Shown here piece after piece: positions 1 to 64,000 of a stretch of 64,000 nucleotides of DNA; position 1 is the first letter of the stretch, and each line of letters opens with the position of its first letter. The notes beneath the pieces were generated by a model. That model searched no databases. It was not told the DNA's origin and worked only from the letters and a program-made list of their open reading frames with translations. The position numbers were made by a program, and so were the translations under genes. Source of the DNA: Podarcis pityusensis (lineage: Eukaryota); assembly GCA_964106645.2 (NCBI GenBank), contig OZ067045.1, one strand, 5' to 3'.

Positions 1-1944
1 GCAAATGACAGGCTGCATTTGCTGCTGCTCAGTTTCTCTGCCAATGGCAAGAACATGGATGCAAGGAGGTGGTTCTCCACAGCAAGGGAAATCAACTGAA
101 GCCACAGGTTCACCCATGGCAAAGTCCAACAATCCTTTGACCCTCTGGCTTTCTGCAGGGTCATGACCTGCCAACAGTTCTGCCCCATACTCCTCTATCT
201 GACTAACTAAGGATGAGAGTGATTGTTGGGATACAGCATCTTTTTCAAGTGGAGGACTGGAAGACGTCACCTTTTCAGAGTCACCAGAAGTTTCCCGTTC
301 AGAGTAGCACTCTGAAAGGGTAGCTTCTGCTGTACTTACTGCTTGAGAACCACATGTGGCATCAAAGTCCTCCAGATCTGAGACCACAGCAGAGTCTGCC
401 ATGCTGACTTCAAGGTGAGTCAAGGGCTGGGAGGCTCCCGCCAAGTCCTTCTGCATGTCCAGCCCTTCTGAACACTGATTAGCATCCTGCACCTCCAGAT
501 CACCTGGAGCCACTCCATCCCCTCCTTCTTCGAGCATGCAAAGCTTTTCTAGTTCAAGGAACATCTGCACAGAATCCGTGTCAGAGAACTGCTCTGGGGC
601 AAGAGAGCTGGCACAGGCTTCTAGGCCAGAAGCAAATTCCTCCTCTTCCACTTCGGCTGCTACAGCTTCAGCATTGCAGGCACCAGCCTCCTCCTCCTCC
701 TCAAGAGTAGCGTTTAAGTCTTGGTGCGTTTCCTGGGGAACGGGAGCAGAGTTGACAGCTCGCAGCTGTGAGTCATCCCACAGCTCTTGCCAGTGAGATG
801 GATGGTTAGAGGTCTCTTGGACACCAGCAAAACTCTCTACAGCTTCCGTAACTGTCACGGCTGGAACACTTAATTGTTCCTTTTCTTCAGAAATATCTGT
901 CAAGTAACAACTTCTTTTCTCAGCAGCCTTCCCTGACAGCAAGCCTTCCTCCCACTCCTCCCCAGCCTCCATCATGATCAATCGCTCATCCTCCTCAAAC
1001 CTCAGCTCGGACTCAGTCTTTTCCCGGAGGTTGGGGGCGATGAGAATGCTCATTCCTGGGTCCAGGAGCTCTTCACTCAGGCAAGGAGACAGTGGCACCG
1101 TTTCTATGACACAGTCTGTGTTGTCTGCCTCCAAGGTGTCATGATGCCCACTGCCAAGGCCTGCTCTGATGGCATTTTTCATCACCCTTGGCCACGTGGC
1201 GCTCGAGAGCCTGTGGTCCCGCCGCCTGCCGCCGGTCTGGTCAACTACCATGTCCTCTGGCCCCAGAAGAGGCTGGCACTCATCCTGAGACAACTCACAG
1301 AAGGCTTCACTTAGCTGCTTCACTTCCTGAATTTCTGGAACTCCAGACAGTTTGGGAATGTGCTCCAGGGTCAACGGCTCTGACATGCATTCCCCCTGGT
1401 CGGACTTCCTAGGGCTCTCTGCCAACATGGCAGTGGACTCCTGCTTCTCTTGCAAGGATGGGTTAGAAACTCCAGCTTCTGAGACTTCACTCAAGGAGGC
1501 CTCAATTCTCTCAGCAAACTCAGGGAAATTGGGTGGCATAAAGGACTTCCATGACCGCCTGTTGACATTCTCCTTCTTCTCTGGATTTGGCCGCCGCCTT
1601 GGGGGTGCCGGTGCTGACTTGGAAACATCACTACTAAGTTTCAAGGCATCAAAAATGACCCTCTCGTCTAACTTTTTGCTCTCTGGTGCCTTTGATTCAA
1701 AGACACTGGGTGCCCCTAAAGTTCCATTGCTAGAGATTGTGCTGCCATCCCCTTTTTCAAGAGTACTCTTGGAAGGCTGGCTAGTCTTGGACCCCTGATC
1801 AATTTGCTCATTTATCCTCATGGTGTCGTAGATGGACCTCTGAGGGACGTAACAGTCTTCTATATACCCATCCTCATCCTCTCCTTTCCCCAAGCAAGCA
1901 GGACTCTGCCTTAAACAGTCAGGCCTGCTGAGTGGCTTGCCCAT
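1..1944 (-). CDS. KIAA0754: KIAA0754-type large alternative first coding exon of MACF1 (ORF open to the window edge, at least 648 codons)
   Basis: ATG at 1944-1942 in strong Kozak context (aaaagtATGg). It translates MGKPLSRPDCLRQSPACLGKGEDEDGYIEDCYVPQRSIYDTMRINEQIDQGSK...KKLDERVIFDALKL...NRRSWKSFMPPNFPEFAERIEASLSE...FSDTDSVQMFLELEK, matching recalled human KIAA0754. I checked frame 1944->1 and found no stop codon. Confidence 0.93.
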   Translation of the reverse strand, partial: MGKPLSRPDCLRQSPACLGKGEDEDGYIEDCYVPQRSIYDTMRINEQIDQGSKTSQPSKSTLEKGDGSTISSNGTLGAPSVFESKAPESKKLDERVIFDALKLSSDVSKSAPAPPRRRPNPEKKENVNRRSWKSFMPPNFPEFAERIEASLSEVSEAGVSNPSLQEKQESTAMLAESPRKSDQGECMSEPLTLEHIPKLSGVPEIQEVKQLSEAFCELSQDECQPLLGPEDMVVDQTGGRRRDHRLSSATWPRVMKNAIRAGLGSGHHDTLEADNTDCVIETVPLSPCLSEELLDPGMSILIAPNLREKTESELRFEEDERLIMMEAGEEWEEGLLSGKAAEKRSCYLTDISEEKEQLSVPAVTVTEAVESFAGVQETSNHPSHWQELWDDSQLRAVNSAPVPQETHQDLNATLEEEEEAGACNAEAVAAEVEEEEFASGLEACASSLAPEQFSDTDSVQMFLELEKLCMLEEGGDGVAPGDLEVQDANQCSEGLDMQKDLAGASQPLTHLEVSMADSAVVSDLEDFDATCGSQAVSTAEATLSECYSERETSGDSEKVTSSSPPLEKDAVSQQSLSSLVSQIEEYGAELLAGHDPAESQRVKGLLDFAMGEPVASVDFPCCGEPPPCIHVLAIGRETEQQQMQPVIC

Positions 1945-2229
1945 ACTTTTCAAAACAATAAAAGAAAACAGAACAGAATAGAATGGGGGGGGGGGACCCC
2001 CGCAGAGAAGAGTCCCACAACGACAAAAAAAACCCTCCCCTGCCTCACAAGCTCTCCATTCAAAGCAAAATGAAATAGATTATGGTGGAGCAAGGTGTCT
2101 TTTGAAAATCCCTAATAACCACTTGGGAGGCCACAATTTTGTATTCCACAGAAGTTACAGAGCTTTCCAGAGAGAAGTCATCTTCCACCGTGGAAGTCCT
2201 TGAAAGAGGCAAGACATTCCATGGCTCCT

Positions 2230-4010
2230 GCGGAAACGCTAGCAGTCCAAGGCCAACACATAAAGCCGTTTCTGCCGATCGCTATTTGCAAGCCCTCCGC
2301 CTCCTCCGGTTGCTCGGTAGGGCTGCTCTCCTTAAGGCAAGTCTTCCAGCCCGCTCCGACAAAGCCTCTTCCAGAGGGCGCCCCGGTCGGAAGCTCAGCA
2401 GCGGCGGCGGCGAGGAAAAGGCCAGCTCTCGGGAAGGCGGCCGCAGAGCGCGCTCTCCTGGCGGAACAAAGGCCCGGCCTCCCGCGCGCCTCCATGCCCG
2501 GGCAGAACTGCGCTTTGCAGAGGCTGCTTCGTCGGCCCCTCGGCGCGGCGCGGCTGGCTCGGACTGCGCCCGGCGGCGGAGATCCCTCGCGGTCCCAGCG
2601 CAGGAAGTTCTTCATGCCGGGCGACGTCGGGCGCCTCCAGTCTGCCCAGCATCCTCGGCCGGCGGGCGGGATAGCTGGTTCAGCACCGCTAGCAAAGGCC
2701 CCGGAAGGTAGGCGGGCAGCTCTCCCCGTGCAGTCTGGGAATCTCGTGGCGAAGTCCGCTCGGCGTTCCTCCCTCGCTCAAGGGCGGCGGCAGCCGGCGG
2801 ACAGAAGCAGAGGCGCCTCCGCAGGGGACGGGCTGGGACAGCCGGCTGCCGGTGTCCTCGCCGGGCGGCTCTCGGCTCCTACCATGCTCGGGCCGCGCAG
2901 ACGGAGCTCTCCCCGCTTGCTTGCTCGCTCTCCAGGAGGGAAGTTTAGTTGGAGCCTTTTGTGCGTCGCGGCGGCGGCGGCAAGAGCGGGGCCCGCCTCC
3001 CCCGGCAGCCGTCCCCGCCGAGCCGAGCCGTGGGCTGCATGTCAAGCGAGCAGCAGGAGCCGGAGCCGCCGCCGCCGCCCCCTCTTCTGTGCTCCCTAAC
3101 GGGGCTGCAGCTGTCACGGCCCTTCTCAGCGCACAAACTTCTTGCCGGGGGAACAAAAGGCTGCGCGGCGAGGCTCGCTCGGATGGAGGGATGCAGAGCG
3201 CGCGACGGCTGGCTGGCTGGCAGGCCGCTCCTCTTGCTCGCCCTTGGAGGACGGCCGGCGGGGCGAGACCAAGCAGCAGTCCGCCCCCCGCCCGGGAAGC
3301 CCAACTCCGGCAGGAGAGCTCCGGCCCTCAGCGCCAACGGCTGCGAGATTCCGGCTGGGCCACCGAGCTGCCAACTCCGAGGGGAGGGGACGCGCCGAGT
3401 GGCGGGGAGGGAGAGAGGGGAGGGAGGAAGGAGGCGGGGACCAGCAGGCGAGGCGAGGCGGAGCGGGGAGGAGGTAGGATGGGGGCGGCCTTAGTGAGCC
3501 CCGGGCGGGCTCGGCGAAGCCAACGGCCACGGGCGGATCGAGGCGCGGAAATCCAGCCCCGCCAGTCAAGACCCGGCCGCTCAGCAGCGGGAAACGCGGC
3601 TGGGCGCTGAGCCTGGTCCGCGGGGGAGAAAAGGAATCTTGCTGGTTCAAGGGGAGAAACAACCCCTCCCCCGCCTTGTCTGGGTCTCCCCCTCCTCCTC
3701 TGCCCCCTTCGCCTGGGGCGGAGGTCGCAGCGCAAATCCCTTGACAAAGAGCAGCGGCGCCCTGCTTCCCTCCAGCGCGCCCCTCCGCTGACTCCGGTTC
3801 GCGGAGGCCAAGACTTTTTGGGGGGCGGGGGCGGGGAGAGACGCCTTGCGATCAGCAACCGCCCGCACGACTGCCAGCGAATCTCTCTCCACCCTCTCTC
3901 CGGCAAACAACCGTCCCCCAAACCAGAGAAATATAAGGTTCTGCCTCGAGTAGCACACTGGAGCCGCAAAGATGGTAGAGACGTTTCGTTGGAGCGTGAG
4001 AACGCGCCGT
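2230..4010. promoter_or_regulatory. CpG island / internal promoter and 5' leader of the KIAA0754-type exon
   Basis: Abrupt GC- and CpG-rich block in otherwise CpG-poor DNA. Contains GGGGCGG GC boxes (~3482, ~3715, ~3822) and lies directly upstream of the ATG at 1944 on the minus strand. Confidence 0.88.
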
Positions 4011-4893
4011 TTGAACATGTGCAGAGTGCAGAGCAAACAATCTTCTCAAAGCTGCAATTTTCACTAGGGGGCGGAAATGATAGTACCTCACCACTGTCTT
4101 CCTCCTAGGCATACAAAACCACTATTCTAAATTGCTGACGTTGGGTTTTTCCAGGAGAGGGCAGGGGAAATAACTTGCAGATGAGCTTATTAATATGATG
4201 GAGCAGGGGAGGTACCTGTGCAGAGTAAATCCCTCTTCCTTAGCTCTTATTTGCTATCCAACAATTGGCTAAGGAGTTGCAGGTCATTTAAATCTCCTGC
4301 AACCTTACAGCTTTGACAACACTGTGTATGAAAGCATCCTCACTTCCATTTTTTTTAAAGCACAGGTGTGCATGTGTGAGAAAACAGCAGGACAGGGTCA
4401 AGATGTGTCTTTATGTGGAAATATCTGCACAAAGGTATGCTAGGATATTTCAAATGGGGCTAAAGTTTCATAGTTGGATTTCAAAGGCGTTTGCCTGACA
4501 TTTCCCTTGCAACACACCATTTTAGGAGGGCCATAGCGAAGACCCAACATAACCTGCTTCTAACTACATGATAGGATTAAGCCCTGTGAAACAAAGAATA
4601 AAAGAGTTCCTCTTTTGGGGGCCTTCCTCACACATATGACACCCACAACCAGCCCTCATGGTACTGTACACTTCCAAAGAAAAGCATGTGAAGAGTGAGC
4701 CTCAGTTAGTAAGGTGTAAAGCCTCACATGAAAAGCTGTGATTCTTCTCTATGCCTCCTTTAAATTTTCAGGGCAATATGAATGGAGACAGGTAAGTGGG
4801 GTCAGATGGAGAGGAAATACAGCAAGCTTCCCACTTTAGCTGTGGCTAGGGTGGGGTTGCATTAATGAATCACAGCACATTTTGGTCGTGCTG

Positions 4894-4894
<1 letters not shown>

Positions 4895-4929
<35 letters not shown>
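4895..4929. repeat. (CA)n microsatellite
   Basis: Uninterrupted CA run. Confidence 0.95.
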
Positions 4930-4930
<1 letters not shown>

Positions 4931-7620
4931 AAAGGTGGGGTGAAATGTAGGCAGCATCACCCCAAGGAGTGAAAAGAGCAGCCCTGCAGTGACATGCAGT
5001 GGCTCATCCAGAGGCTCAGTTTGGGCCATGGATCTTCACAGCGTACTTGTTTTTACTGCAAGAGCCCCTGGCTGGAGCACTTCTGACCATGTGCAAACAC
5101 TTTTTAACAAGTCACTCCCTGCCAATCTGGCTTCCCTGCAACATGACTATTTGCAGAAACAAAGCACCAAGAGCAAGCAAAGGTGAAGGTTTCTAGCTCT
5201 AGCAACACTGCAGGCGCTGGCAGGAGAAACATTGCACAGGCTTTTGCCTCAATGAGGCCCTGAATCCTTAATGCTCAATAGTCCCAACTCCTTGTAGTCA
5301 TACAGTTTTCAAGCTTTTCTACATTGAACTTTGCCCACCTTGTCATGTAGGAGGGCATCATTCTCAGCTCATACCAGGTGTCCTGGGCTTCTCCTTGGAA
5401 ACCAAAAGCACAGCCTGCAATACTCTGTGGCTGGTGAAGGGAGTTGCTGGTAGTCTTGGGGCAAACACTCTTTCAAGGAAGATTGTCTACCTTGATTTGA
5501 GGAACCCACAGTGAACACTTGACAAAGCACAGATTTCCTCATTATACGATCTGGAAATCATGGCCAAAGAGCAAAAAGCAGTTGCCTCATCTGCAACAGC
5601 ACGTTCACGCATCTTCTCCCCACAAAACCTGCAAGGTTGTGATTAAAAGCAGCAGCTGAACCCGGATTGTATGGGTGGGGGTAGAAGTGGGCGAGTGCAA
5701 TTCACTTTCCATGTAAAGATAGCTCACACTCCTACCCAAGAAATTACCCTCCTAGGAGCTTCCTCCCACAATCAACCGAAGCAGTCCAGGCCACAGGTAT
5801 AGCTGCACAGAGCAGGTGCACAATCCAGCGAGGCAATTCTGGGGGAGGAGCAATTCTTGTCAATCAAATCAAACTTTAAATATGATTTCCTCCCCCAAGG
5901 TGAGGGAGAAAACTTGGCAAACAGTTAAGGGATGGGCCAAGTAAAGTTGATCCAGATTATCTGCTTGGATTCTGGTGCCACAGAGCATTCATCTCATTAA
6001 CCAACATTTCATTGCATCATTTATACCAAACAGGAAATTTCACCACCAAAAAGCCCTATAGCAATGGCTGCATACAGGGTTAGAGAGATTGCCCAGCCTC
6101 CTCTCTTCCCAGAGCCCCACCAGCCAATATACTGTTTTGTGTGCACACAGAGACCCCTTTCCTGGCCTTTCCCTTGCTTGGCTCAAGAGCGCAGTAGACA
6201 GCCAGACATTACAGTCACAGAAGAACGTCTAGGCTAGCTGTAATAATTGGATGCAGCTGCAACAATAATCTGGCCAGTAGTTTCACCAAAGCAGGCCCTT
6301 CATGTGCCACCGCCGCCTTCGCTGTTCAAACTGCCTTCAATTGCGCAGGGCAAGTTTTTCTCTTTTAACGGCTCTCCCAGCTTCCTGCAGGAAGAATCTG
6401 AGGAATTCCATGTGAGGTTTCCCCCCTCACTTATAAAAGGACGATGTGTTGAGTTTGCAGCCAGGAATTCTTTGGCTATTTCCTCATCAGGTCACATGCC
6501 AACAAAAGGAGTGCCAATATACATTCATTCCCCTCCTCCTTGGAAGAGGGAATGTGGGCCTATCCCCTTCCCCACTAAAATCAAATATGCACATAAAGAT
6601 AATGACATCGAAATTGGTCTGTCCTTCATCACATGAACTGACTCTCTTGAAGCTGAAATATTTGCTTTGAACTGGCATTACTTCAAGCCTGCTTGACGGT
6701 CTTGGAAAAATTCCAAGTAGCAAAAACTCACACAAGATGCCCACGTATAAGAATGGTAACATTTCTTCCACTCCACCCACTTCCTTGAAATGGTCTCTAA
6801 AATTTCAGCGCTGGCAACTAAGAATCTGAAATATCTCTTCCCCTGCCCCCAACTGATTCTTTAAGATAGGGGTAGGGAACCTGGAGTCTAAATACTGCAG
6901 ACCTCACTTTCTGGTCCTTGGGAGACTCCACAGGCCACACCTTTCACTGGCCCTGCCTAAAACCACTATCCTAGAGCAGTTGTGCCTGGCTTAAATGTGT
7001 CTTCGAACTTGGATAATGCCTCTTCCTTGCCTGGAGAGAGAACAGGGAGGGGGGGGTGTAGGAACTAATGCCTCCCTGCTCCTATATATATTTTTCAAAA
7101 ACCTGGAGGGACATTTTACCTGGTGGGGGGGGGGGAATCCTTTTGGGTTCATAACAAGAGGGCACTCCTTTAAATGAATAATGGCTACTTCCTTATGACT
7201 GTCTTCAGCACTTTGAGTGTTCTGGGGTCCTTCCAATAAGATGCTCTGAGCACCCAGAAAATTGGCCCAGGTGTAGGAGATGGGCGGAGTACAAGATTTC
7301 TGAGGGATCCATGGGGACCATGGTTCCTTTTGCATTTCTTGCAGTGTGATGTAGAAAGACCAGCCAAGCAGCCAGCTGTGGCACTGAACTATATTTACCT
7401 GATGATGGAACTTCCAGACTCTGTATCCCCTAGCGACAATTTAGAAGGAAGGGCATGAGAGAGAGGGAGAACAAGCCAAAGGCACGTCTGCTAATTTCAG
7501 TTTATTTGTGGGATTACAGTATGCCTGGTGAGCAAAGAATCCCAAGGCAAATTCAAGCAAACTCCCAAGCCCACATGCACAGCAAAGGTTTGTTAGCTCA
7601 AGAGGCTCATCCTTTCGAGT

Positions 7621-7745
7621 AGCCCCAACCTGACACCTTCCAGATGTTTTGGACTACAATTCCACCAGCATGGCCATGTGATGCTGGGGCTGCTGGAAGT
7701 GGTAGTCCAAAATGCCTGGAGGACAATAACTTGGGGGGGGGGGCA
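7621..7745. mobile_element. Palindromic ~130-bp MITE (hAT-like)
   Basis: ccaacctgacaccttccagatgttttggactacaattcc ... ggaagtggtagtccaaaatgcctggagg; inverted arms, same family as the 17180 and 39812 copies. Confidence 0.7.
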
Positions 7746-8097
7746 CTTTTAAGCCAAAGTTGGTTTCCTTCTGTAGCCAGCAGCTTTTCACAAAGCATTT
7801 CTTTAAAAGGAGGAGCTGGGACTTTGCCCACTGTTGCACCTGGGTCCCCGCCTTGTTAAACTGATTGCAGGGTTTGCTGTAGTAGCTCAACAGTGGATGG
7901 AAAGCAGTCTACATGCTCAGAAGTACAGTGTTAATCCACATGTTTGGGGAATGTGGCTTGTAGCCACAGAGCTACAAGCAGATTCCAGGACTGTGCTCTG
8001 GTGAGCCACTGAGCAAATTAATCCTACAAACTGATCTTAAGTAGGGCTGTCGAGCAATTAATGAATGGCAGTTGATAACACACAAGGCAGGTGGTAT

Positions 8098-8200
8098 GAG
8101 GCCGCTTCCTATGTTCCTGACTCAGACCCTTGGACCCATCTATCACAGTACTGTCTACACTGACTGGCAGGGACTCTCCAGGGTTTCAGGCAGGAGATCC
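8098..8200 (-). mobile_element. Fragment of a tRNA-derived SINE with CR1-like tail
   Basis: ctcagacccttggacccatctatcacagtactgtctacactgactggcagggactctccagggtttcaggc; also seen at 35316-35440 and, in reverse, at 45566-45732. Confidence 0.6.
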
Positions 8201-9009
8201 CAAAGTCTAAAATATTTGTACTGTATTGAGACAGCAGCAGTGGCATTTTAAAGCACACTATTAACAGGAAAAGACCACCTTCAATGTTTTCTTTTTGTCA
8301 TTTTTTTATGGCAGTGGCACACTGTACTCAAAATAGCCTCAGAAAATAGGTAAGTGGTTTTTTTTAACTCTGCTAATTAAAATCTGTTCCCATGGATTCA
8401 TCAGCAAAAGATTTAGTTGATTGATCTACTGATTAAATCAATTAAAGCTTGAAGCTCAAGTCTTAAACTATGGGTTGTGTTTCACAAACAAGGCATAAGA
8501 AGACTGTTGATGGTTAAACAGCACCAAGGATTACAGCAAAACTCCCTATTTTTCCTTCAGAAGGCAGAGCACCTCCATATATGGGGCTTGCTGGGCATGC
8601 AAAAGTATACAACACAGCCTGTATTTTGCTTATAGGCCTTGCCTCGTGCACCCCCCTCCACACTGCCCATTTGTAGACTTCAGCACCCTCCTTACCCCTA
8701 TCTGCTAAACAACTGCACAACAGCTCCTCCAGGCAACAACACAAACTGCTTGCACGGGCAAGCCACATCAGGAGGCTATTTGGATGGGTATTTTTAGGTC
8801 CCTCGTAATGCAACTTAGCAGCTGGAAGTAAGCAGCAAAGCAAAGCACTTTCCTCAAGACTTAATTTCTAAAATGTGAGGGGCCCAGACCCAATATTGGC
8901 CTAGAAGGCATTCTTCACTATTCCACCTTGGTGTGTGAGCGGCTTGAGGCTGCTCAGTGGTGAGAATTCACTCAGCACGTGCCCAGTAACATGTTCACTT
9001 CTTTAGAAT

Positions 9010-9345
9010 GAAAGAACGTAAGAACAGCCTACTGGATCAGGCTCACCTAGTCCAGCATAGGTGGACATCCTTTTCTCATAGTGGCCAACCAGATTCCTGT
9101 GAGAAACCCTCAAGCACAGCTCATGCACAATGGAAGCATTGCTGCTTCCAACTGTGGAGGTAGAGCATAGGCATCGTGGCTAGTAGCCAATGATAGCCCT
9201 CCCCTCCATGAATTAGTCTAATCTTCTTTCAAAGTCATCCACGTTGGTGGCCATCACTGCCTCCGGGGGGAGCGAGTTCCATAATTTGACTATATGCTGC
9301 ATGAAGTACTTTCTTTGATCTGTCCTGAATCTTCCAGCATTAATT
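9010..9345 (-). mobile_element. CR1 LINE 3' fragment
   Basis: aagaacgtaagaacagcctactggatcagg...gtggccaaccagat...ctgtcctgaatcttccagca resembles the reverse complement of an amniote CR1 3' end. A further piece lies at ~9500-9600. Confidence 0.7.
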
Positions 9346-12300
9346 CACACACTCCAAGGCTAAGCCCATGACAGTGGAAGCAGGCTTTGGTTCAAACAAC
9401 ACCCCCTGATTTCCTAGGCCCATTCAGTGATCTTTGACTGGACTATGACGGGGTTATTGGGGAAAGATTGGGGGGGGGCAGTTTTGGCTAACAGAACTAT
9501 GATGTAAGGAGACACCTGCTGAGTCAGGCCAAAGGTCCATCTCAGCCCAGCATCCTGTTTCCAACAATAAGCAACCAGAGGCATCTTGGGAGGCCACAAG
9601 CAGGTCAGGAGGAAAATAGACTGATCCTCACAGTTTGTCCCAGGTTTCTGGTGTTACTGGTAGGCTGCCTCTGCACTTGGAAGTTCTAGTTAGCCATTAT
9701 GATTCTTGGAAGGTCATAAATATACAGCACCTTTTTTTGCTTTTTTGTCAGAGTCCAGTGACCTTACAATCTTATCTGCTTCTTCTTTTTAAGGATAGTT
9801 ATGGAGATTTTGCAGCAATCTTCCTCAAACTGGTACCCACTAGATCTCTTAAGACTACAGCTCCCATCAACCTGAGCAAGGCATGGCTGATTTACAGGCA
9901 CAAAGTTTTTCACAGGGAGGTGCTCCTCCACAACCACAGCCAGGAGCATTAAAGTTATCCCAGTGATGAGCGATCAGTGATTATGCTAATTCAGAACTTA
10001 ACACTGCACCTTCGCACAAGCACACACCCTCCTACGAAAGAAGCGGGATTTGTATAATTTATTTTAAAGCCCCTCCTTCACTCACGCTCGGCTAGTACTT
10101 ACGAAACACAAGGGATTTACTTTATCTTTCCTCCTCCATTCAACCTCTTCCAGCCTAGATCCAGCAGTTCTGCCTGCACCAATCTTTGAGGGGAGGAAAT
10201 TACATTTCTGTGGACATAGGGGGTAGCTGTGACACAAGGCTAAACCCTCAGCTCCAAACGTGCTCTAGACAAAAGCTGCCAGGCTAATCCCACCCAACTG
10301 CACTGCACTGGGCAATTCCTTTTATCTGCTTTGCTCATGACAGACTTCAAACTGATTTCATGTCAGGTCTCAGGCACCTTACAATCCTGCTTTCCTAAGA
10401 AGAAAAGCCTCTTCTCTTCTTGCAGACTGTGGTTAAAGGAAGGTGGCCTTGTCCCAACAGCCAGAGTTAGCATTTCTGCAAGCGATGCAACAGAATTTCC
10501 TAGGATGCACTGCAGAAAATTGCTCCCCACAACAGCCCAACCAGGCCATGCCTGGCAAAGTGCCTGGATTAAACCTGCTCACCAAACTGACTGAAGCCCA
10601 CCAGGCACAGATCAAGCCTTGCTAGATGCTAAGCAACCACCAGACAACAAAACCAGGACGTTTCTGGAGCCCTACAGTCTGGCATGGTCCATTTAAGGAG
10701 CATATTTCATCCACAGAAAATAAGGAAGCACAACACCACTGAAAGAAAGTTGCAGCTCCAATACAAGCTTCTCTTTCTGCCATTGGAAGGAATATCATCT
10801 CACACTGGTGGTGGCAAGCCCTTGTTCTAGCTCCTTTGGGGAATAGTGGAAGAAAACTGGTCTATATATTACACCAACCCATGCCCTGCAATCCTGGTTA
10901 CAATACCATTCAGATAGAGTGTTTTCAGTGTCCTCAGATATGACATTTGGCACCAGCAAAGGTCACTTTAAGTGACAGGATTAGGGCCACTCCATCAACT
11001 CAGCTGTGAACTGCCATAGTTGGGCTTTCCACTTGCCCAGAACTCACCCTCTCAGTGGCCATTCCTCCTGGTTGCGCAACATTTACTTTTTTTGAAGAAT
11101 TTGTACCTAAAATTGCTTATTCTCCAGCACTAGATGCTACACTGAAGAGTGGCCCTCACTTCAGCCATCCCAGGGAGTGGTGGATCCTTCCCACTGCCAT
11201 GCCTTCATCTATTCCTCAAACTGAAACCCTGCCTGGCCTGATTGGCTGGGAGACCCCTATGTAAGCTTCCCACCTTTGCAGCTCATCCAGTCCTTGGGCA
11301 TTCTGCTTGCAATCTTCCATCTGCACTTCAGGCCTCTCCTGGGTCTCCCACCTGATTAAGAGTCCCCTCTGATGCTTCATCTGGGTTGGCACTCAGCTGA
11401 GCTAAACCCTGGGCTTGTTTCCTTAAGGTTAATTTTCTTTTAAACATGTACCAAGTGCATTCCTCTTGCCACTAAGTAGCTTGCTTTAACATACTGGAGA
11501 TTTTGGAACAGAGCTTCCAGGCGAAAGATGCCAAATTTGAGCCCTGGGCACCCAATTGTACGTACAACATACACTCTTCTATCTCCTTTTCCTTTTCTTA
11601 AGGAAAATAACCTCTGTTGCCAGCCTCCAGCTCATGAGTCACCTGCTTACTCTTAGTCTCTGAAACTGTGTTGCCTCAAATTTTGGGAAACTATGTAAGT
11701 GGACATAAATGACTAGTTTGTTGTCGGGAACCGAAAGCGCCCTGGTGATGCCAACCTCAGATAAAGCGGGTATTTTGCAGAGCTGCTAAGTAAACAGCCT
11801 CTTGGCTTGCCATGCCAAACACTACAGTGCTCACAGCTGCTGCCCATTCTGGGACGCACCCTGCAGGAAACACAACTCTCCCTCCCTACTCTGCTTGGCA
11901 AACCCAGCTGCTGATTGATTTCCACAACAGGAAGGTGTGGCAAGCAATGGGAGCTGATGAAGCATCCTTTTATGCTGTTTACCAAAGGGTCAAACCAGAT
12001 ACGCACACATTGCCCCAAACACAAGGCCAACTTGCCTTCCAGCACAGGGCAGCTTGAGAGCTGTTAAGAAGGCAAATACAAATGCCCACCCATCTAAAGC
12101 AGCCTTTGCCAACCTGGTCAGACTACATCTCCCATCAGCCTCAGCTACCACAGAGGCTGCTCTAAAGTGCTGAAATGCTAGCAATCATCAACCAGTGGAC
12201 AGGTGCTTGGCTCACACCCTCCAGTTACTGAATCTGCATCTGCCTTCTCTCAACGTGGGGCATTCTGTGCTCTGAACTCTATGGGGAATGGCCCTGTTAT

Positions 12301-25441: not shown

Positions 25442-25556
25442 GGAGCAGTGCAGGCCCTACACTCCAAGGTCCCAGGGTGGGTTACAGCATTAAAAACAAC
25501 TCATCAGTAGATTCAGCATTAGCCAGAAGCCACCTGCAGCATAGCCAGGTCCTTAC

Positions 25557-27028
25557 CTTGAAATCTGCCAGCTGCTGACTGATAACCTCCACTTCTGTCC
25601 CAACGACCCACTGCAAAGCTTCGCTGTCTTCTGCTGTGGCTGTCATGTAGTTCAGCTCCTTTAGTTTGTCATAGAAGTCCTTGACGCGAGCCAGCGTTGT
25701 GTCCACCTGCTCCAGGCGACTTTTGCCTCTTTCGTTCAGTTTGCCACATTGCTTATTTAAAGTCTCCAGCTCACGTTTCAACCCTATGAGGTCGGGGCTT
25801 CCTTCATCATCCAACATCTGCCTGCATTTCTCTTCAGAAGCTTGGATATCCAGCCTCAGCCTCTGAAGTTTGCCCAGGAATTCATGGACATCCTCTGCTT
25901 GAGACTGCAGACTGTCCATGTCTCTCCCAACAGAGCCCATGCTGTCCAACTCGTCATCTAGGTCAGCCAGCTGAGAGAACATCTCCCGAACATGATTATT
26001 AAATTGACCAATCCCTTCAAGCTTGCTCTCCATAAGTTGACAACATTCGTTAACTTTTTGCTTGACTGCTTTGAAGTCTTGCTGGGCAACCTCAGCTTGA
26101 CTTAAGAGATGGGAGGAGTCAGACCCATCTGGAGCATCTTCCACCAGGCCCCGAGTGAAATTCCTCAGGTAATCCACCTGGGGTTCCAATGCCTGGATAA
26201 CCTCCTGTTGGGCTCTCAGCTTCTCCAAGTTCTTAGTGCTGCAGGCCTGTGGGCCGAGGGCGTCATAGATTTCCAGCTGATGCTTTGTCCCATCTAGTTT
26301 CTTCTCAATGTTCCTAAAGCTTTCTTGGAACTCCTTCAGCCTTTGCGACATTTCTTCCAGGGAACCGGTCTTTGCTTGGAGTTCCTCTGTGATAGCGTCC
26401 ATCTTCTGGTTGATCCCAGCTTTCTCATCCCTAACATCATCCTCATCCATTTCTGATGCATTGATGAGGATATCAGCGGCGCTGTTCAGCATCTCCAGAA
26501 GGGAGCGGCGCTTCTCCACATCGCTCAGCATAGCCTTTGACCTCAGGAGTGTGGCTTCCAGTTGTACTGGATCCAGAGTGACTTCCAGCTCTAGCATCTT
26601 TGACCTGCAGTCCTCCACCCACGGGAAAAGGTCTTCCACATGACGCTGGTATTTCTGAGCCTTCTGTAAGCAGTCCTTGAGTTTAGCATGTCGGTCTGTG
26701 ATCTGTTTGCTAAGCTCCTCCCAGTTTGCTTTCAGGTTGACCAGCTGGCTTTGCAAACTGGCTCTCTCCTCGCCGGGATGAATGGAGTGAAGCAAAGACT
26801 CACCCTCTACCACAATCAATTCATAGGAGCCCCTGTGCTGGTTGAGGCTCTTTTGGAATTCTTCCTGCTCCTGGATCTGAGACTGCAGCCTCTCCAGCTT
26901 AGCTGAGATCGGCCCACTCTGTGCCTGCTGCCTCAGCTTGTCATCCAGCCAAGTGTGGAGCTCATCAAACATCTGTTGGAATTGCTGGGAGCTGGCAAGC
27001 ACTGTCTGCAATCGATTCATCCGGTCAC
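25557..27028 (-). CDS. MACF1: MACF1 spectrin-repeat exon, 1472 bp (phase 1->0)
   Basis: ttttcag|GT GAC CGG ATG...TTC AAG|gtaagg; GDRMNRLQTVLASSQQFQQMFDELHTWLD...SQQLADFK. Confidence 0.96.
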
Positions 27029-27696
27029 CTGAAAATTGGAGGAGGCAGGAATACATTGTTAAGACATGCATTTCATAAAGCTAGGAACCTCTCCTAATGT
27101 TCCTGATGCACAAATCTACATTCCAGTCTTCGCCATATAAGCACCTTTCAGTGAAAAAGCAAATTGGTATACCATTAAAGGTAAGGCAATCTTATACATC
27201 TAGAAAGCCACAAATCACAGAACATAGGGTCTATTCAGGGGAATTTAATTGATTCTGTAGGATCCCCAGAACATCTGTTTCCTTAAAAAATGGTTTCTAG
27301 GTCTTACATTTACATAGAGGCAGTGGTCAAAATGGGATGGGGTGGCATTCCAATTCTTTTCAGGCAGACAAAATGGAGCCCAGCTAACCATCCCACTTCT
27401 TCTACACATGCATTAGGGAAAAATACACCTGGGAGATGGCATTGGCTGGGGCTTCCTATTGGGCCTGTGTTGGTGACACACTGAGTTTGCTTCATAATGT
27501 GTGGAGTGGCCCTGAGATTAAGCCTTTCACCACATCTGGTGAGCCAAGGATCTATTGGGTCCTTATTGCCCACACAACTTTCCTGGCTGTTGGGAGCCCT
27601 CCTTCTCGACTAAATGCTGTCTGTGTTTCTAAATTCTGCAAATGGTGTTATATAGCACCTGATGACCCCATGTTTTCAAATGATTCATTTCCATAC

Positions 27697-57472: not shown

Positions 57473-58879
57473 CTATGGAGTCAGAGGCATTAAAACACAG
57501 GTTTTAGACAGAATAGGAGAGGGATTCAGACAAAGCACAACAATCTTGGACTTTTCTATTTGCATGGTTCTAGCTTATTTCATCTAAAAACTGCATTTCT
57601 TGTTGGGCCAGATTTCATTTTTTAAATAAAATACTAATTTCTGAAAAGACTGTAAGGTTTCCCTGATAGTGGCCCGTCTTCTTGAGACTCTCTCCCAGGA
57701 GGGACTCACCAGTCTACCTGACTATCAACCTTCCAACATCTGGTTAAGAAATCTTTACATTTGGCACCAAATGCTTTCTGGCAGGACCATATCCACTCAA
57801 GACCCCCTGAGACAAGCAAGCGCCTCATGACACCAACAGGGCACCTGACACCATGTGGTGTCAGCTGAATGCCTAGAGGTCGTAGTGTGGCCAGAAACAG
57901 CTGCAGAGGCCTGTCTGGGCTGCCTGGTGGGCCTAAATTGGCCTGAAGACTTGAGGTTCCCCACCTCTGACTTTCAGGCTGTATTTCAGGGGCAGCCAGC
58001 TGCCATAATCACTGAGCATTGGTCATACTGGTTTGGGTTGATGGAAGTTGGAGTCTAAAACATCTGGAGGGTACCCTATTCCCCCACCCACTATATCACA
58101 TTTATTGGGCATGTAACTTCCTCTTGCTTGCACTCTTAGGGGGCAAGTCAAGCTCCAAACTATGATGGGGAAAGAGCCACCTCTTCGCCAACTATAAAGG
58201 AAGACATAGGCAGGGCTGCACCAAAGGGAAGGGGGCCTGGTTTAGCTTGCTCCTTCACTGCTGACTACATGGCCTCCAGAGCAGTGGTGTAGTGGTAGAA
58301 TTTGAAGTGCATCATGACAGCCCCCACAGCTATCCATGCCCAAGTCATCAAGATAAGCGTGACTGCATTCATGTCCACAGTTTCCTGGGGAGCCAGCTCT
58401 CCTTAAATGTAGAGGTGCTCCCTCCTGACTGCATAGATTCAATGGGTAAAATATACTAAGCTTCAGCAAAAAAAAATCTTCCAGAAGCTGAAATGCAACT
58501 GTTAGCATTTCACCAGGAATGCAAACCACCTCGGCAAAGGGAAAATGCCACAATTTCAACTGCTTGCATGAAGTTAAAAGAGAGAAGCATTTAGCCTCTT
58601 GCTTATTTTTTCTCATGTTCCTGACTTCCTCTATGTTTATCTGTCACAAACCCGAAAGCCTCATTAGTGCCTCATTTACTCACCAGAGTGAAGAGGCTCC
58701 ATACATTATCCCGGTGTTCCAGTAGATGCTGTTGCTGCTCTGAGAGAGTCCCAGAGGCGCACTCCCCTGTGTCCCCCAACTCACCCTACACCACTGCTCA
58801 AGAGATATACTTTCATTTCAGCTGTCCAGCTAGCTTCACAATATGAATAAATGTCTCTGAGATTAATAAGTCCACTTAC

Positions 58880-61800
58880 CTTGGCAAGTTTGGGGGCATC
58901 TTGGCATCTCTCTTCCCCACTGCCTTCAACCACACAGGTGGGTTCATCAGCATCCTTGCTTTCTCTGGTCATTTTTGAGGTTTCAGTGTCTTGCACAGGT
59001 GCTTTTCGCCTAGAGATATCCCTCTTGCTTTCTGTAAACTCTTGGTCTTGCAGCATCTGTGCCTCTGGCTCCATTTTCTTGTCTCCCATAGAACCAATGT
59101 GCCCCATCTCTTCTGCTTCTGCATCCACAGGCACTCCTTTGGCAACAGCACTTCCATAGTTTCTAGTTAGTTCCTGGACAGCATCCTCTTGTCTGAGCAA
59201 AGGCACAGAATGATAATGACTTATCTTGTCCTCTAAGATCTCTCTGTTTTGCACAGGTTCTGTCTTGAGTGCAGAAGGCCCTGAGGATTCTGTGTCATCT
59301 ACCTTAGTAGTAACATTAGCTTTTTGGACCTTTGAGATAATTGGTTCTTTGGCCTTTTCTTGAGATACACTTTCTTCCAGATTATCTACCTCTACCAAGG
59401 AATCTTGGTAAGTTCTAGTCTCTTGCTCTGTTAACTCTCTGGGTGAATCTGTCTTTGGGGTAACATTCACTTTCTGATCATCTGTGATGTTTGCTTTAAT
59501 TCTGTCTTGCTTGTTCTCTTTTCCAAATGCCTGTGGATCTAGTCTCTCAACCTCCACTTGTTCTATTGTGGTCTGGCTGCTGGTCACCCTGTCAGATATA
59601 TTCTCCTGGAATGATTCTAGAACCCCAGAGGCCAACTCCTCCTTGATCCTTCTCATCAAAGTTTCCTTGGAATCTGGGGTAGGAGGGGATGGCCTTTCTT
59701 GGGAAGAGTCACACACCCTAAGTGGTTCTGTTGGGGCAGCAGGCTGCTTTTTATTCTTTTTTGTTTTCTTCTTCTTGGTGCTTTTTAAGTCAATACTTTC
59801 TGAAGTGAGAAGATCCGAGGGTCTTAATTGAGATCCAGGGCTTGGTAGTTCAGTCTTGATGTCCACACACAGCAGCTCATCAGAGGCCTGTTTCTTGGGC
59901 TCTACAACTGTAGGAAGTCCTTCAGAATTTATGAAATCATTTTCTTCCTCCGTCTGACCTACAGAACTGAATTTCTTGGGTGCTGACACCTCCAGAGGTT
60001 CCAAGTGTACGATACCCTGAGCTTTCTTCTGGAGGACAATGGCTGCAGCATCACTCTCTTCCTGAGTAAATCTCTTGTCTTGTTCCTGGTCCCCATTAAT
60101 TGTCTGGTTCATCATCAAATTCATCCCAAACTTCTCCTCCTGAGACACAATTCCTTCCAATTTCTTTTCAATCACCTGATCGTTTCCTCCTTGCTTTTCC
60201 AATTCGCCTTTCTGGAGTTCTTTCCCTCTGAACTTGCTTTTCCTCCTAATATTTTTTTTCTGGGCTTTAACTTTCAGGGCATCAGCTGGGTCTAACATAT
60301 AGGCAAGCTCAGGTGCCAGCCTGCCTTCTGCTAAAAGCTGACTAGCCAAACTATCCAGTGCAGTAGGAAAAGGAAAGGAGGCTGGCACTGATTCAACCAT
60401 TTCTTTTGCCATCTCTTGAATCCCTTTTGAAGAGTTGTTAGTGGCATCACCAGTTAGGCTGCTCTCCATAGCTGAAGGCACTGGAGTCTCTTTCTCATCA
60501 TGATTCTCAGCAACATATTCACAAAAGCCTAACACTTCAGACATGGAGGTCCCATTCTGCAGCAACAGCTGAGGCTGCTGCTCTTCATGTTCTTCCAGGT
60601 TCTCACATTCAGATCTATTGTTGCTTATTGAAACACTTTCTTTAACTGTGCTGGCTAACTCCTCACTGACTAAGCCCCTCTCAACGGCCTCTTTTAACGT
60701 CACTCGTTCTCCACTCTTAGTACCAATAATTCCTCCAGCCAAGAGCTGATTAACAGCAATGGCTTTAGCTGTATCTTTATCTAGCACTTCTCGCTCCAAA
60801 GCAGATGCCAGTGTCAACCTTTGGCAAGTCGAAGTCTCCATGATGCCACCTGTGTCTGCTTGAGCCTGCAACAACCTCAATGCAAGCATGGGGTCTACCT
60901 TGTCAAGCTTAACTGCTTGTGGATATGAGAGTACATTCCCAGTCACTTCATCTTTGAGGTCTCGAAATGGAACAACTTCCAAGTATCTCTGCCCTGACTC
61001 AATGTCAATTTTGCTTTTCCTGACCAGTTCTGGATAGGAGACCAACCTACAGCTCTCTGGATCAATTATTGCATGCTTCATTTCAGAGGATGCAATGGCT
61101 TTTTCCATAACTGCTTTGGGCAAGAGTCCTTCCTTCACAGCTTTAGCCAATATAATCTTCTGGCCAGAAACAGGGTCGAATATGCTTCCAGTTGAGGCTT
61201 GTATTTCTTGAACATTTTTTTGAAAATCTGAGTTGACTAATCCCAGGGATACGGCTTGAGGCAAGGGCATAGGTTCCTTTGTTTCTGGATGAATGTACTG
61301 ATGCAAGCATATACTTTCTGCCTTTCTGAGATCTTCATAGAAGCCTTGGTCAATCAATCCATGTTCCACAGCATTCTCCACAGAAAGTCTCAAGCCTGTC
61401 TTGTGGTGAATAATCCCTCCATCAGCTATCTGCTTGGTCAGGAGTTGGAAGGCTTTCTCCTTGGCGAGAAATCCCTTTTCCACAACCTGGGTGATTGTCA
61501 AAGGTTCTTTAGTTTTAGGATCTAAGATGCCTCCTATTTCAGCCTGCAAAGTGATTAGCTTCTCTTTGGTTGCATCGTCAGCACCTTTCCCCTTAGATGC
61601 TTTCTCTAGTTTCTTAAGATCTTCTTGGGTAGATTGCTGTATGAGGCCATGGTTAGAAGCCAATGTGACTGACATTTTCTTGCCACGCTTGAAGTCAACA
61701 ATCCCACCGGTAACAACTTGCCCTTCCAGGATTCGTGCAGCGGTTTCTTTGTCCAGCAGACCAACCTCGGATGCATCCTTGATGGAGAGAATGGTTTTTT

Positions 61801-64000
61801 GAAGTGGATCTATAACACCACTTATGGCTTGATCAGATGCTAGCACCTTCTGCATAAGTTTCTCATCCATCAGTCCTTCACCAATTACTTCTTCGGTGGT
61901 TAATGATTCACAGGTCTCAGCATCAAAGAAGCCACTGAATATTTTCATCTTGTCCATCAGTTTGATGGCTGTATGGCTGGGTACAACTCCACAGGCAATG
62001 GACTCATCCAGGAGCATCTTCTTCCCTGTCTGTTCATGAATTATGCCACCATCCTGAAGCTGCATCAGCAATATTTTAAGGGTGCTGTCTTCTCCCAAGT
62101 CTGTGGACAGTTTTGGTGATGCAGAACTATCAGTTTGATGGAAATGATCCATTTTTCCTTCCGTACTCAACTGTTCTTCCATAATATGGTCATCTGTAGA
62201 TTTCCCTTCAGCTTGAAAAAGACTTTCAACTGATTCATTTCTCACTTTTCTAATACTTAGCCAGTTCACAGAGTCATCACCTGCTGCATCTTCTGCTGCA
62301 AGAGTGACATTTTCAATAGCATTATCCTTCAAATTTTGAGATTCCTCTAGTTTCTCCAAATCAACTGTGGATATAACAGTTTCTTTTTCAACAGGATATA
62401 TTTCAATACCAGTCTCCCACTCTTTGAAAACCATCTCTTCTGCCTGCATTTTTGCAAACATAACATTTTCACACAAGATCTCCACATTTGTGGATTCCAT
62501 TTCAAAGCTGGAGTCCTTGATGGATTTGGACTCTGGCAGTTCAATTTCATGCCTGCTCTGGTTCATTGTCAGGTTTTGCTCTCTTCTGGAGTCATCCATT
62601 TCACTTTTAAGGTTTCCTACAGAATCCTCTTTCATCTCTGGCATCTTTACATTCACACATTCTATTTCTTTCACTGGAAGTTTTCCAATTTCTATTTCAA
62701 GTGTTTTGTTAGATGGACAAATTTCTGAGGGCATATATCCTTCAAGCTCTTCTTTGGACACTGATAAATTAAATTCAAATTCCTTCAAAGCGAATTCATT
62801 ATGGGGTTTAGCAACCACAGTTATTGTCTTCCCATCCTCAAAATCATCCCATTGTTGGGGTTGGTTTTCACTAGTTTTTAAGGGATGGGCATTAGATCCA
62901 TTATCTTGAGCTGTAACAAGCATTTCAGCAAGGTTACTTAACTCCCCATCTACAAGCAGCAATTTTTGGCCATTGCTGATGTTGACATAGCTGTGAGTCA
63001 TCAAATGAAACAATGTCCTTTCTTCACAGCTTCTTAGTGGACATTTGCTTTGGTTCTTAAGGTCCCCTGGGCTATCTGAGGGGGGGATACTCCTTTCCTG
63101 CCTGCTTGGAGAATCTGCAAGGGGCATGTTTGGCATGACATCAGGAAGGTGGATTGATTTCAGTTTCTCAATGGCATCTCTGTCCAGAATCCCACGATCA
63201 GCAGCTTTCTTCCAGGTCAGGATCTCTCTGGTTTGGGGTATGAAAAGTGCCTCAATGTGTTGCCGTTTGCTTAGAATCTTATGGGCTAGCTCAGAAGACA
63301 AAATGCCCTGCTCCAGGGCATCTGTAACAGGGAGAATCTCACCTGACTTGGGCTGCAGAAGACCCATAAATGACCAAAGGGATTCTAGAATCACTACAGC
63401 AATTCTTGATGCTACTAAGTCTTTCCTCACTGCTTCATCCAGCGAAAGCCTGTCTCCTGTAACCGTATCTATAATGCCACCTGTCTGCAGCTGTCGGACC
63501 AGAAGGGCACAAGCCAGATCTTGGTCAATCAGATTATGTCTTATGGCTTCATCCACAGTCAGCCGGTGGCCGCTTTTGGGGTCCACAATGCCACCAGCAA
63601 AGAGCTGTGCTTCCAGCAACCTCACAGTCACCTGCTTCTCTATTAGCCCTTCCTGAACTGCACGGAAGATGCTCACTTTTCGGCCTGAAGTTAAGCTCAC
63701 CATCCCACCTGCCAGCTGTTTCACTGGGAGCAGCCTCAATCCTGTCTCCTGGTGAAGGATGCACTGCTCCATCAGGTCGCTCAAGCTAATTTTCTTGGCT
63801 GAATTGGGGTCAATCAAGTCCTTGCAAGACCTCAGACGGGAAACCAACTTCCCATGAAGGCGGGTGGTAATGCTTCCTCTTTGAAGAGCCTCTTCTAAGC
63901 TGATCCTGCTTTGACTGGAAGAGTCTATAAACCCACCAGTGAGAATCTGCACTTCTGCGATTTTCAGCCCAACGCTTTCACTGATGGTTCCATCTTCCAT
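58880..64000 (-). CDS. MACF1: MACF1 giant plectin-repeat exon (MACF1b-type), 5' part outside window
   Basis: At least 5121 bp open frame ending GCC AAG|gtaagt. Two clusters of plectin repeats (RLLEAQLFAGGIVDPKSGHRLTVDEAI; ~64000-63150 and ~62090-60650), separated and followed by acidic low-complexity linkers. Confidence 0.96.

What the first reader, a model, noticed from the sequence alone, without database searches (positions are those of the whole stretch)
1..1944. Hidden 648+ codon alternative first exon gives MACF1 a predicted lipid-anchored N-terminus
Seen: an ORF absent from the ORF track starts MGKPLSRPDCLRQSPAC in strong Kozak context, in the phase-0 intron after exon 25557, under its own CpG island. 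Established: MGxxxS is the N-myristoyltransferase consensus, nearby Cys residues are often S-palmitoylated, and KIAA0754 is a poorly characterised ORF nested in mammalian MACF1. Inference: this exon makes a spectraplakin lacking the actin-binding and plakin domains. It would tether the distal spectrin rod, EF-hands and GAR microtubule-binding end directly to membranes, i.e. a membrane-microtubule rather than an actin-microtubule linker.
Basis: partly seen in the sequence, partly recalled or inferred. Interest (0 to 1): 0.72.

Follow-up and report, generated by a model that had tools for sequence, protein, structure and literature searches.

The report
Ancient short MACF1 isoform, dystonin twin
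A second start inside the giant cytoskeletal linker gene MACF1 makes a shorter protein that lacks the actin-binding end and begins with a likely fat-anchor signal, so it would tie microtubules to membranes; databases already list the human form, and the sister gene dystonin carries the same start at the same place.

Summary
The minus-strand ORF at 1944 starts MGKPLSRPDCLRQ and runs 1106 codons to a phase-0 donor 1373 bases beyond the window edge. Contigs from four studies of relatives (RNA by guess, but spliced) join that donor to the next MACF1 spectrin exon, with only 26-28 letters on the short side. Three are colinear from the CpG island through the ATG. It is a ~4.8-kb alternative first exon. 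It is not hidden: it is the orthologue of KIAA0754, curated as Swiss-Prot O94854 'MACF1 isoforms 6/7' (3514 aa). A 2017 review legend probably already mentions it. Myristoylation is predicted only. GKxxS and L5 fit, while K3, P4 and R7 are less favourable, and three myristoylation datasets show no isoform-specific evidence. The proposed G2A control is unsafe, because NMT can move myristate to K3. Verdict: known but unstudied isoform; the membrane-microtubule tether is plausible (about 0.55) and directly testable.

The parts
1..1944 (-). First 648 of 1106 codons of the alternative first coding exon of MACF1 (KIAA0754 orthologue). It continues beyond the window edge to a phase-0 GAG|GT donor at G000:C8:32486627, which joins the spectrin exon starting at C8:32478505.
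   Evidence: joint in 4 of 4 runs
1894..1944 (-). Residues 1-17: predicted N-myristoylation signal (G2, S6) with C10 and C17 as candidate palmitoylation sites
   Evidence: MGKPLSRPDCL in 113 of 120 listed MACF1-type hits and 120 of 120 listed dystonin-type hits; M1-S6, P8, C10, C17 invariant in 72 aligned sequences; lipidation untested
1792..1866 (-). Residues 27-51: most conserved block (CYVPQRSIYDT..NEQID), predicted helix 38-49; likely a partner-docking motif
1534..1671 (-). Residues 92-137: conserved LDExxIFDALKL helix and RRSW motif; no Pfam family and no globular fold
1945..3397 (-). Unspliced GC-rich 5' leader of the same exon, with 10 upstream ATGs (3040-2059), all of whose frames stop before 1944
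   Evidence: contigs colinear to 3389, 3323 and 3397 in 3 of 4 runs, no joints listed; uATGs
2001..4200 (.). CpG island, likely internal promoter; the only one in the window
   Evidence: contigs cannot show a true start
25557..27080 (-). Open frame holding the last canonical MACF1 spectrin exon upstream of the host intron; phase-0 donor at 25557; absent from the short isoform
58781..64000 (-). Open frame holding the large plectin-repeat exon of MACF1 (MACF1b type); absent from the short isoform

Best explanation
This is an alternative first exon of MACF1 that splices in frame onto the distal spectrin rod, EF-hands and GAR microtubule-binding end, giving a ~3,300-residue isoform without actin-binding or plakin domains whose conserved N-terminus is predicted to be myristoylated and would likely tether microtubules to a membrane. 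Shown: the exon, its phase-0 splice, the downstream exon chain, and a paralogous exon at the equivalent intron of dystonin. Inferred steps: (1) the CpG island acts as the promoter; (2) Met removal and NMT myristoylation of G2; (3) S-palmitoylation of C10/C17 as the second signal for stable membrane binding; (4) residues ~27-140 are short helical docking motifs, and residues 151-1106 (net charge -147) are a disordered spacer; (5) the retained rod and tail still bind their known partners (CAMSAP3, Rab21, ELMO, GolginA4, EB1, microtubules); (6) lacking the ABD, it would escape the EF/GAR-to-ABD autoinhibition described for Drosophila Shot.
For: Joint L021 1305-9427 (CT..AC, exactly the predicted donor and acceptor) in 4 of 4 runs from 4 studies. 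Contigs of the same length and depth, with matching record positions, run on to window 3389, 3323 and 3397, so one contig appears to span leader, ATG and junction. The same junction position appears in annotated human, snake, gecko, bird, shark and teleost proteins and in chimpanzee and orangutan. 36 of 43 stand-alone amniote-ranked ORFs carry the E|V donor read-through signature. Swiss-Prot O94854 is 3514 aa (supplement row of PMC12955691). 38 colinear blocks cover 2096 of 2212 downstream residues of a bird model; the two large gaps were found; the chain ends in GAR and SKIP. 18 of 23 listed differences to relatives inside the ORF lie at third codon positions. The dystonin paralogue has identical residues 1-13, with 6 of 13 codons silently different. 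28 of 29 long dystonin-type hits start MGKPLS, three of them as 2636-2690-aa frames on 9-10-kb Logan contigs. MACF1-type and dystonin-type exons fall on opposite sides of a 100/99 branch, each with a shark. Hagfish has the exon. GKXXSX with a hydrophobic residue 5 is a stated NMT substrate pattern (10.1101/2021.06.22.449375, section 5). Partner-binding repeats are from the table in PMC8012552; that repeats 18, 19 and the last one are retained is inferred, not mapped.
Against: No direct lipidation evidence. There is no KIAA0754, O94854 or N-terminal peptide entry in 6 supplements of PMC4200515 or 3 of PMC10696250, and O94854 has 0 unique peptides in PMC12955691; expression of the isoform in those samples is unknown. 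K3 is less favourable for NMT and makes S6K7 more crucial, but this N-terminus has R7. A P4 peptide (AKPTSKDS, which also lacks G2) was not myristoylated, perhaps because of P4. Invariance of P4, R7, P8, D9 and L11 exceeds what NMT needs. The junction's short side is 26-28 letters, under the tool's 31-letter bar for bridging. The runs are relatives and are RNA by guess only. No single record links the first exon to the GAR exons in MACF1. Ten upstream ATGs may suppress translation.
Confidence: 0.55

Rival explanations
1. The isoform is real, but its N-terminus is mainly a protein-binding signal (residues 1-50 docking on a partner) and is not lipidated or only weakly so; the protein is then a partner-targeted, actin-independent microtubule scaffold.
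For: All of residues 1-12 and 27-51 are conserved, far beyond the NMT consensus. K3, P4 and R7 are suboptimal. The isoform is absent from three myristoylation datasets.
Against: G2, S6, C10 and C17 are invariant in 72 of 72 aligned sequences. Divergent teleost copies keep MGKPLSRP and gain cysteines while other motifs drift. Spectraplakins already use an N-terminal myristoylation motif in BPAG1a3 (PMC3352950, passages). The two roles are not exclusive.
Confidence: 0.3
2. The main product is the stand-alone, unspliced KIAA0754-type protein (1120 aa, read through the donor to the intronic stop), and the spectrin fusion is minor.
For: Human isoform 7 / NP_055853.1 (1427 aa) ends this way; many annotations are stand-alone.
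Against: Contigs join across the intron in 4 of 4 runs. The donor position is conserved while the read-through tails are unrelated in sequence and length, as expected of intron sequence. The same holds in dystonin.
Confidence: 0.08
3. The transcript is made but little protein results, because the 1.45-kb GC-rich leader with 10 upstream ATGs represses the main ORF except under special conditions.
For: 10 uATGs; O94854 is at evidence level PE=2 with 0 unique peptides in one dataset.
Against: Protein-level conservation from hagfish to human and third-position bias show that a protein is under selection.
Confidence: 0.07

Closest known systems
Human MACF1 isoforms 6/7 (Swiss-Prot O94854, formerly KIAA0754; NP_055853.1)
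   Same: Orthologous exon (81% identity over residues 1-200 to human KAI2516368 model P0032), same junction position; curated full-length form 3514 aa.
   Different: Only the species and the divergent acidic spacer differ (1106 versus ~1404 residues). No functional study was found in the searches made.
Dystonin (DST) short isoform, human cDNA FLJ26213 / Q6ZP91 and automated ~2,600-2,700-aa dystonin models
   Same: Equivalent intron, phase-0 donor, identical residues 1-13, 61% identity over 152 aa.
   Different: Shorter exon (429 codons); no CpG island in this genome; YDTV instead of YDTM and KMIF instead of RVIF.
BPAG1a3 / dystonin-a3 and MACF1a3 type N-termini
   Same: Alternative first exon with an N-terminal myristoylation motif (PMC3352950; 10.1101/122010). 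An MG-Cys-starting frame lies 119 kb along the same strand here, downstream of the CH1-like exons; its identity with MACF1a3 is recalled.
   Different: a3 isoforms keep CH2, plakin and the whole rod; this isoform starts mid-rod and has an unrelated N-terminal sequence.
MACF1c and MACF1-4 (ABD-less isoforms)
   Same: No actin-binding domain (PMC4914211).
   Different: Both are listed with a plakin domain; the 2021 review calls the plakin domain a feature of all known isoforms (PMC8012552), and this isoform lacks it.

Membership tests
MACF1 isoform 6 (O94854) orthologue | First exon homologous to KIAA0754 | tested here: met
MACF1 isoform 6 (O94854) orthologue | In-frame splice to the distal spectrin exon at the human position | tested here: met
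   short side 26-28 letters, in relatives' contigs
MACF1 isoform 6 (O94854) orthologue | Intact downstream chain to EF-hand, GAR and SxIP | tested here: met
   genomic exon chain; two blocks each hold one stop that I did not place (likely intron overhang); no single transcript shown
Canonical spectraplakin isoform | Plakin domain | tested here: not met
   Bird model P0009 has only spectrin, EF-hand and GAS2 families; the exon has no Pfam hit. It is a product of a spectraplakin gene, not a canonical isoform.
Canonical spectraplakin isoform | Spectrin rod, EF-hands and GAR | tested here: met
N-myristoylated protein (NMT substrate) | Gly2 after the initiator Met, Ser6 (GKXXSX) | tested here: met
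N-myristoylated protein (NMT substrate) | Favourable residues 3, 4 and 7 | tested here: inconclusive
   L5 is favourable; K3 is less favourable; P4 is suspected unfavourable; R7 rather than K7
N-myristoylated protein (NMT substrate) | Myristate detected on the protein | tested here: inconclusive
   not listed in three datasets; expression there unknown
Dually acylated membrane anchor | S-palmitoylation of nearby Cys and membrane localisation | not testable with these tools
   C10 and C17 invariant; no assay
PP1-docking (RVxF) protein | Conserved extended RVxF motif | tested here: inconclusive
   Matched in 111 of 113 MACF1-type but 1 of 120 dystonin-type sequences; modelled as helix; motif definition recalled

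The most novel reading that the evidence does not exclude
All vertebrates carry an overlooked class of 'mid-rod' spectraplakin, older than the MACF1/dystonin duplication: a dually acylated, actin-independent, non-autoinhibited membrane-microtubule tether whose invariant CY[VI]PQ-RSIYDT block is a tyrosine-phosphorylated signalling dock. It is made by both genes and is spared by mutations in their 5' halves, which would help to explain position-dependent phenotypes of MACF1 and DST alleles.
Probability: 0.35. Interest if true: 0.78.

Novelty: new member of a known kind. Interest (0 to 1): 0.5.

Why it matters
Reviews from 2016, 2021 and 2026 list six MACF1 isoforms, and this is not among them in the passages read. 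Yet it is conserved from hagfish to human in a duplicated pair of disease genes. If it is lipid-anchored, it gives a direct route for attaching microtubules to membranes without actin. It also means that knockouts, antibodies and patient variants in the 5' halves of MACF1 or DST leave a GAR-containing product intact, while GAR/EF variants hit it too. A short reporter experiment would settle the anchor.

Tried and rejected
(1) No RNA holder is listed on record; the 18 'RNA?' rows are guesses, and I laid 5 of them (X1, X4, X9, X10, X14). (2) The pyrimidine tract and AG just before the ATG suggested a splice acceptor; no joint was listed in 1-5000 and three contigs run straight through, so a separate non-coding first exon was dropped as the main form. 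(3) No contig covered the bin just past the donor (L021 9019-9352) in the 4 runs; contigs show presence, not absence. Contig depths were not used to rank isoforms. (4) Folded domain: no Pfam family; AlphaFold on residues 1-157 with 72 sequences gave pLDDT 58 and pTM 0.20, with four short helices, so no fold search was run. (5) RVxF and YxxM motifs (definitions recalled) are not kept in the dystonin twin (RVIF 1 of 120, SIYDTM 0 of 120). (6) Invertebrate relatives: 52 hits among 1.84 billion representatives; of the 10 divergent ones looked up, 9 are named and all are vertebrates. This is weak evidence of absence. (7) The ESM Atlas gave no result. (8) Paper searches showed no study of this isoform by title or abstract start; most hits were seen as listings only. 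(9) Whether Ensembl MACF1-226 is this isoform is unresolved; Dekker 2025 is not held. (10) Earlier scan notes held nothing. (11) No complex prediction was run, as no specific partner is claimed.

Full report
Observation. The window is G000:C8:32488001-32552000 and holds part of MACF1 on the minus strand: a plectin-repeat frame at 58781-64000 and a spectrin frame at 25482-27080. The nearest named relatives of the ORF are squamates. The frame from 1944 starts MGKPLSRPDCLRQSPAC and has no stop in 648 codons. With neighbouring stretches it is 1120 codons long and has A at -3 and G at +4. 200 shuffles of the region gave at most 262 codons. The only CpG island of the window is 2001-4200. The upstream exon ends at 25557 in phase 0, and no spectraplakin exon was found in 4000-25400.

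Exon structure. Homologues fused to spectrin repeats all switch at one point..DNE or ..SDE followed by xFQKEQVDP. Here this predicts a GAG|GT donor after 3318 bases (1106 codons, phase 0) and an acceptor 8121 bases further on. Laying four runs from four studies on that stretch gave the joint 1305-9427 with CT..AC ends in 4 of 4, beside an ordinary neighbouring intron joint with 167 letters on its short side. The short side of the key joint is 26, 26, 26 and 28 letters, below the tool's 31-letter bar. That is expected for a contig ending where two isoforms merge (inference), but it is a limit. The runs are relatives and are RNA by guess. On window 1-5000, records of the same length and depth (4800, 4736 and 4777 bases) run colinearly to 3389, 3323 and 3397 with no joints; the fourth run covers 1-1105 and 1126-2414. 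The exon is thus about 4.8 kb with a 1.45-kb leader. Contigs cannot show the true start. The leader has 10 upstream ATGs whose frames all end before 1944. Of the 40 difference rows shown (118 not shown), 23 lie in the ORF and 18 of them are at third codon positions. Downstream, 38 colinear blocks cover 2096 of 2212 residues of a bird model; its two larger gaps were matched; two blocks each hold one stop that I did not place. The chain ends in EF-hand, GAR and SKIP exons. The estimated product is about 3,300 residues.

What is known. Hits are named 'KIAA0754 homolog' or 'MACF1, isoforms 6/7-like'. P0139 is human 'Isoform 7 of MACF1, isoforms 6/7' = NP_055853.1 KIAA0754. A supplement row of PMC12955691 lists O94854, 'isoforms 6/7', 3514 aa, PE=2 (only that row seen). 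So the fused isoform is curated. The passages read in three papers (PMC4914211, PMC8012552, PMC12918444) list six isoforms without it, and the 2021 review names the plakin domain as present in all known isoforms. Ten paper searches showed no functional study; most hits were seen as listings only, and subscription journals are largely missing.

The dystonin twin. A search of this genome with residues 1-157 found a second copy, G000:C3:32838259-32838735, 61% identical. It lies in the other spectraplakin gene (dystonin by the names of its homologues), between the paralogues of the same two flanking exons. It has a predicted phase-0 donor after 429 codons and no CpG island. Residues 1-13 are identical while 6 of 13 codons differ silently. 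All 120 listed hits (of 194) carry MGKPLSRPDCL, including human cDNA FLJ26213. 28 of 29 long hits start MGKPLS and most run to the dystonin C-terminus; three are 2636-2690-aa frames on 9-10-kb Logan contigs, which implies spliced transcripts. A tree of 19 chosen rows splits MACF1-type from dystonin-type at 100/99, each side with a shark (midpoint root only). Hagfish has the exon. The exon therefore likely predates the duplication. The Fig. [quoted passage not shown] That is probably this exon; I could not see the figure.

Anatomy. MGKPLSRPDCL occurs in 113 of the 120 listed MACF1-type hits (of 167); the other 7 are gene models that start later or elsewhere. These sets were found by N-terminal similarity, so the counts lean high. 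Among 41 further representatives, 33 have MGKPLS, 1 has a different MG start and 7 lack the motif; divergent teleost copies keep it and gain cysteines. Conservation is confined to islands within residues 1-160, 247-253, 284-355 and 453-470. Residues 151-1106 have net charge -147. There is no Pfam family and no predicted globular fold (pTM 0.20; helices 38-49 and 94-104 are the most confident). CY[VI]PQ is present in 113 of 113 and 120 of 120 sequences. SIYDTM and RVIF are MACF1-specific. Their likeness to YxxQ, YxxM and RVxF motifs is recalled and only a lead.

Mechanism. The best reading is an internal promoter making an ABD-less, plakin-less linker in which a predicted lipid anchor replaces the actin-binding end. 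Section 5 and passages of 10.1101/2021.06.22.449375 give GKXXSX as the rule for K3 substrates, favoured by a hydrophobic residue 5, which is met here. They also call K3 less favourable, make S6K7 more crucial (R7 here) and suspect that P4 disfavours the reaction. Myristoylation data gave no support: nothing in 6 supplements of PMC4200515, where MACF1 appears only as a post-cleavage substrate; nothing in 3 supplements of PMC10696250; and 0 unique peptides for O94854 in PMC12955691 (file cut when stored). Expression in those samples is unknown. Supplements of the two bioRxiv papers were not seen and may bear on this. Retained partners (Rab21, CAMSAP3, ELMO, GolginA4, EB1) come from a review table, and autoinhibition by the ABD is described for Shot. 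Applying these to this isoform is inference.

Verdict. Real, expressed in relatives, database-known and functionally unstudied. The exon and isoform are near certain; the lipid-anchored membrane-microtubule tether is about 0.55. The added value lies in the twin in dystonin, the depth of conservation and a corrected test. Interest 0.5.

Noticed in passing
G000:C3:32837449-32838735 (L042, L044): Paralogous alternative first exon in the equivalent intron of dystonin with the same first 13 residues; no CpG island there.
   Followed up: yes
window 1945-3397: 1.45-kb GC-rich leader with 10 upstream ATGs; possible translational control. Conservation of these uORFs was not checked.
   Followed up: partly
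window 3436-3651 and 3895-4112: Low-depth contigs in X1 and X4 extend beyond the main contig ends: possibly further start sites, divergent transcripts or DNA.
   Followed up: no
119125 bases from the window start (L027), minus strand: 403-codon frame starting MGNTLGC downstream of the CH1-like exons, probably the MACF1a3-type first exon; MACF1 would then have two predicted acylated N-termini.
   Followed up: no
proteins P0305, P0306: Dystonin-type models with a different N-terminus joined into the twin exon downstream of the MG motif: a possible non-acylated variant or a model artefact.
   Followed up: no
proteins P0297, P0298, P0301, P0302, P0304, P0307, P0309-P0311: Divergent teleost copies (one named si:ch73-305o9.3) keep MGKPLSRP and gain adjacent cysteines; no spectrin junction motif was matched in them.
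   Followed up: partly
L021 3341-4008, 5011-6012, 7349-7682: High-copy repeats inside the intron between the new donor and the next exon, heavily covered in all four runs.
   Followed up: no
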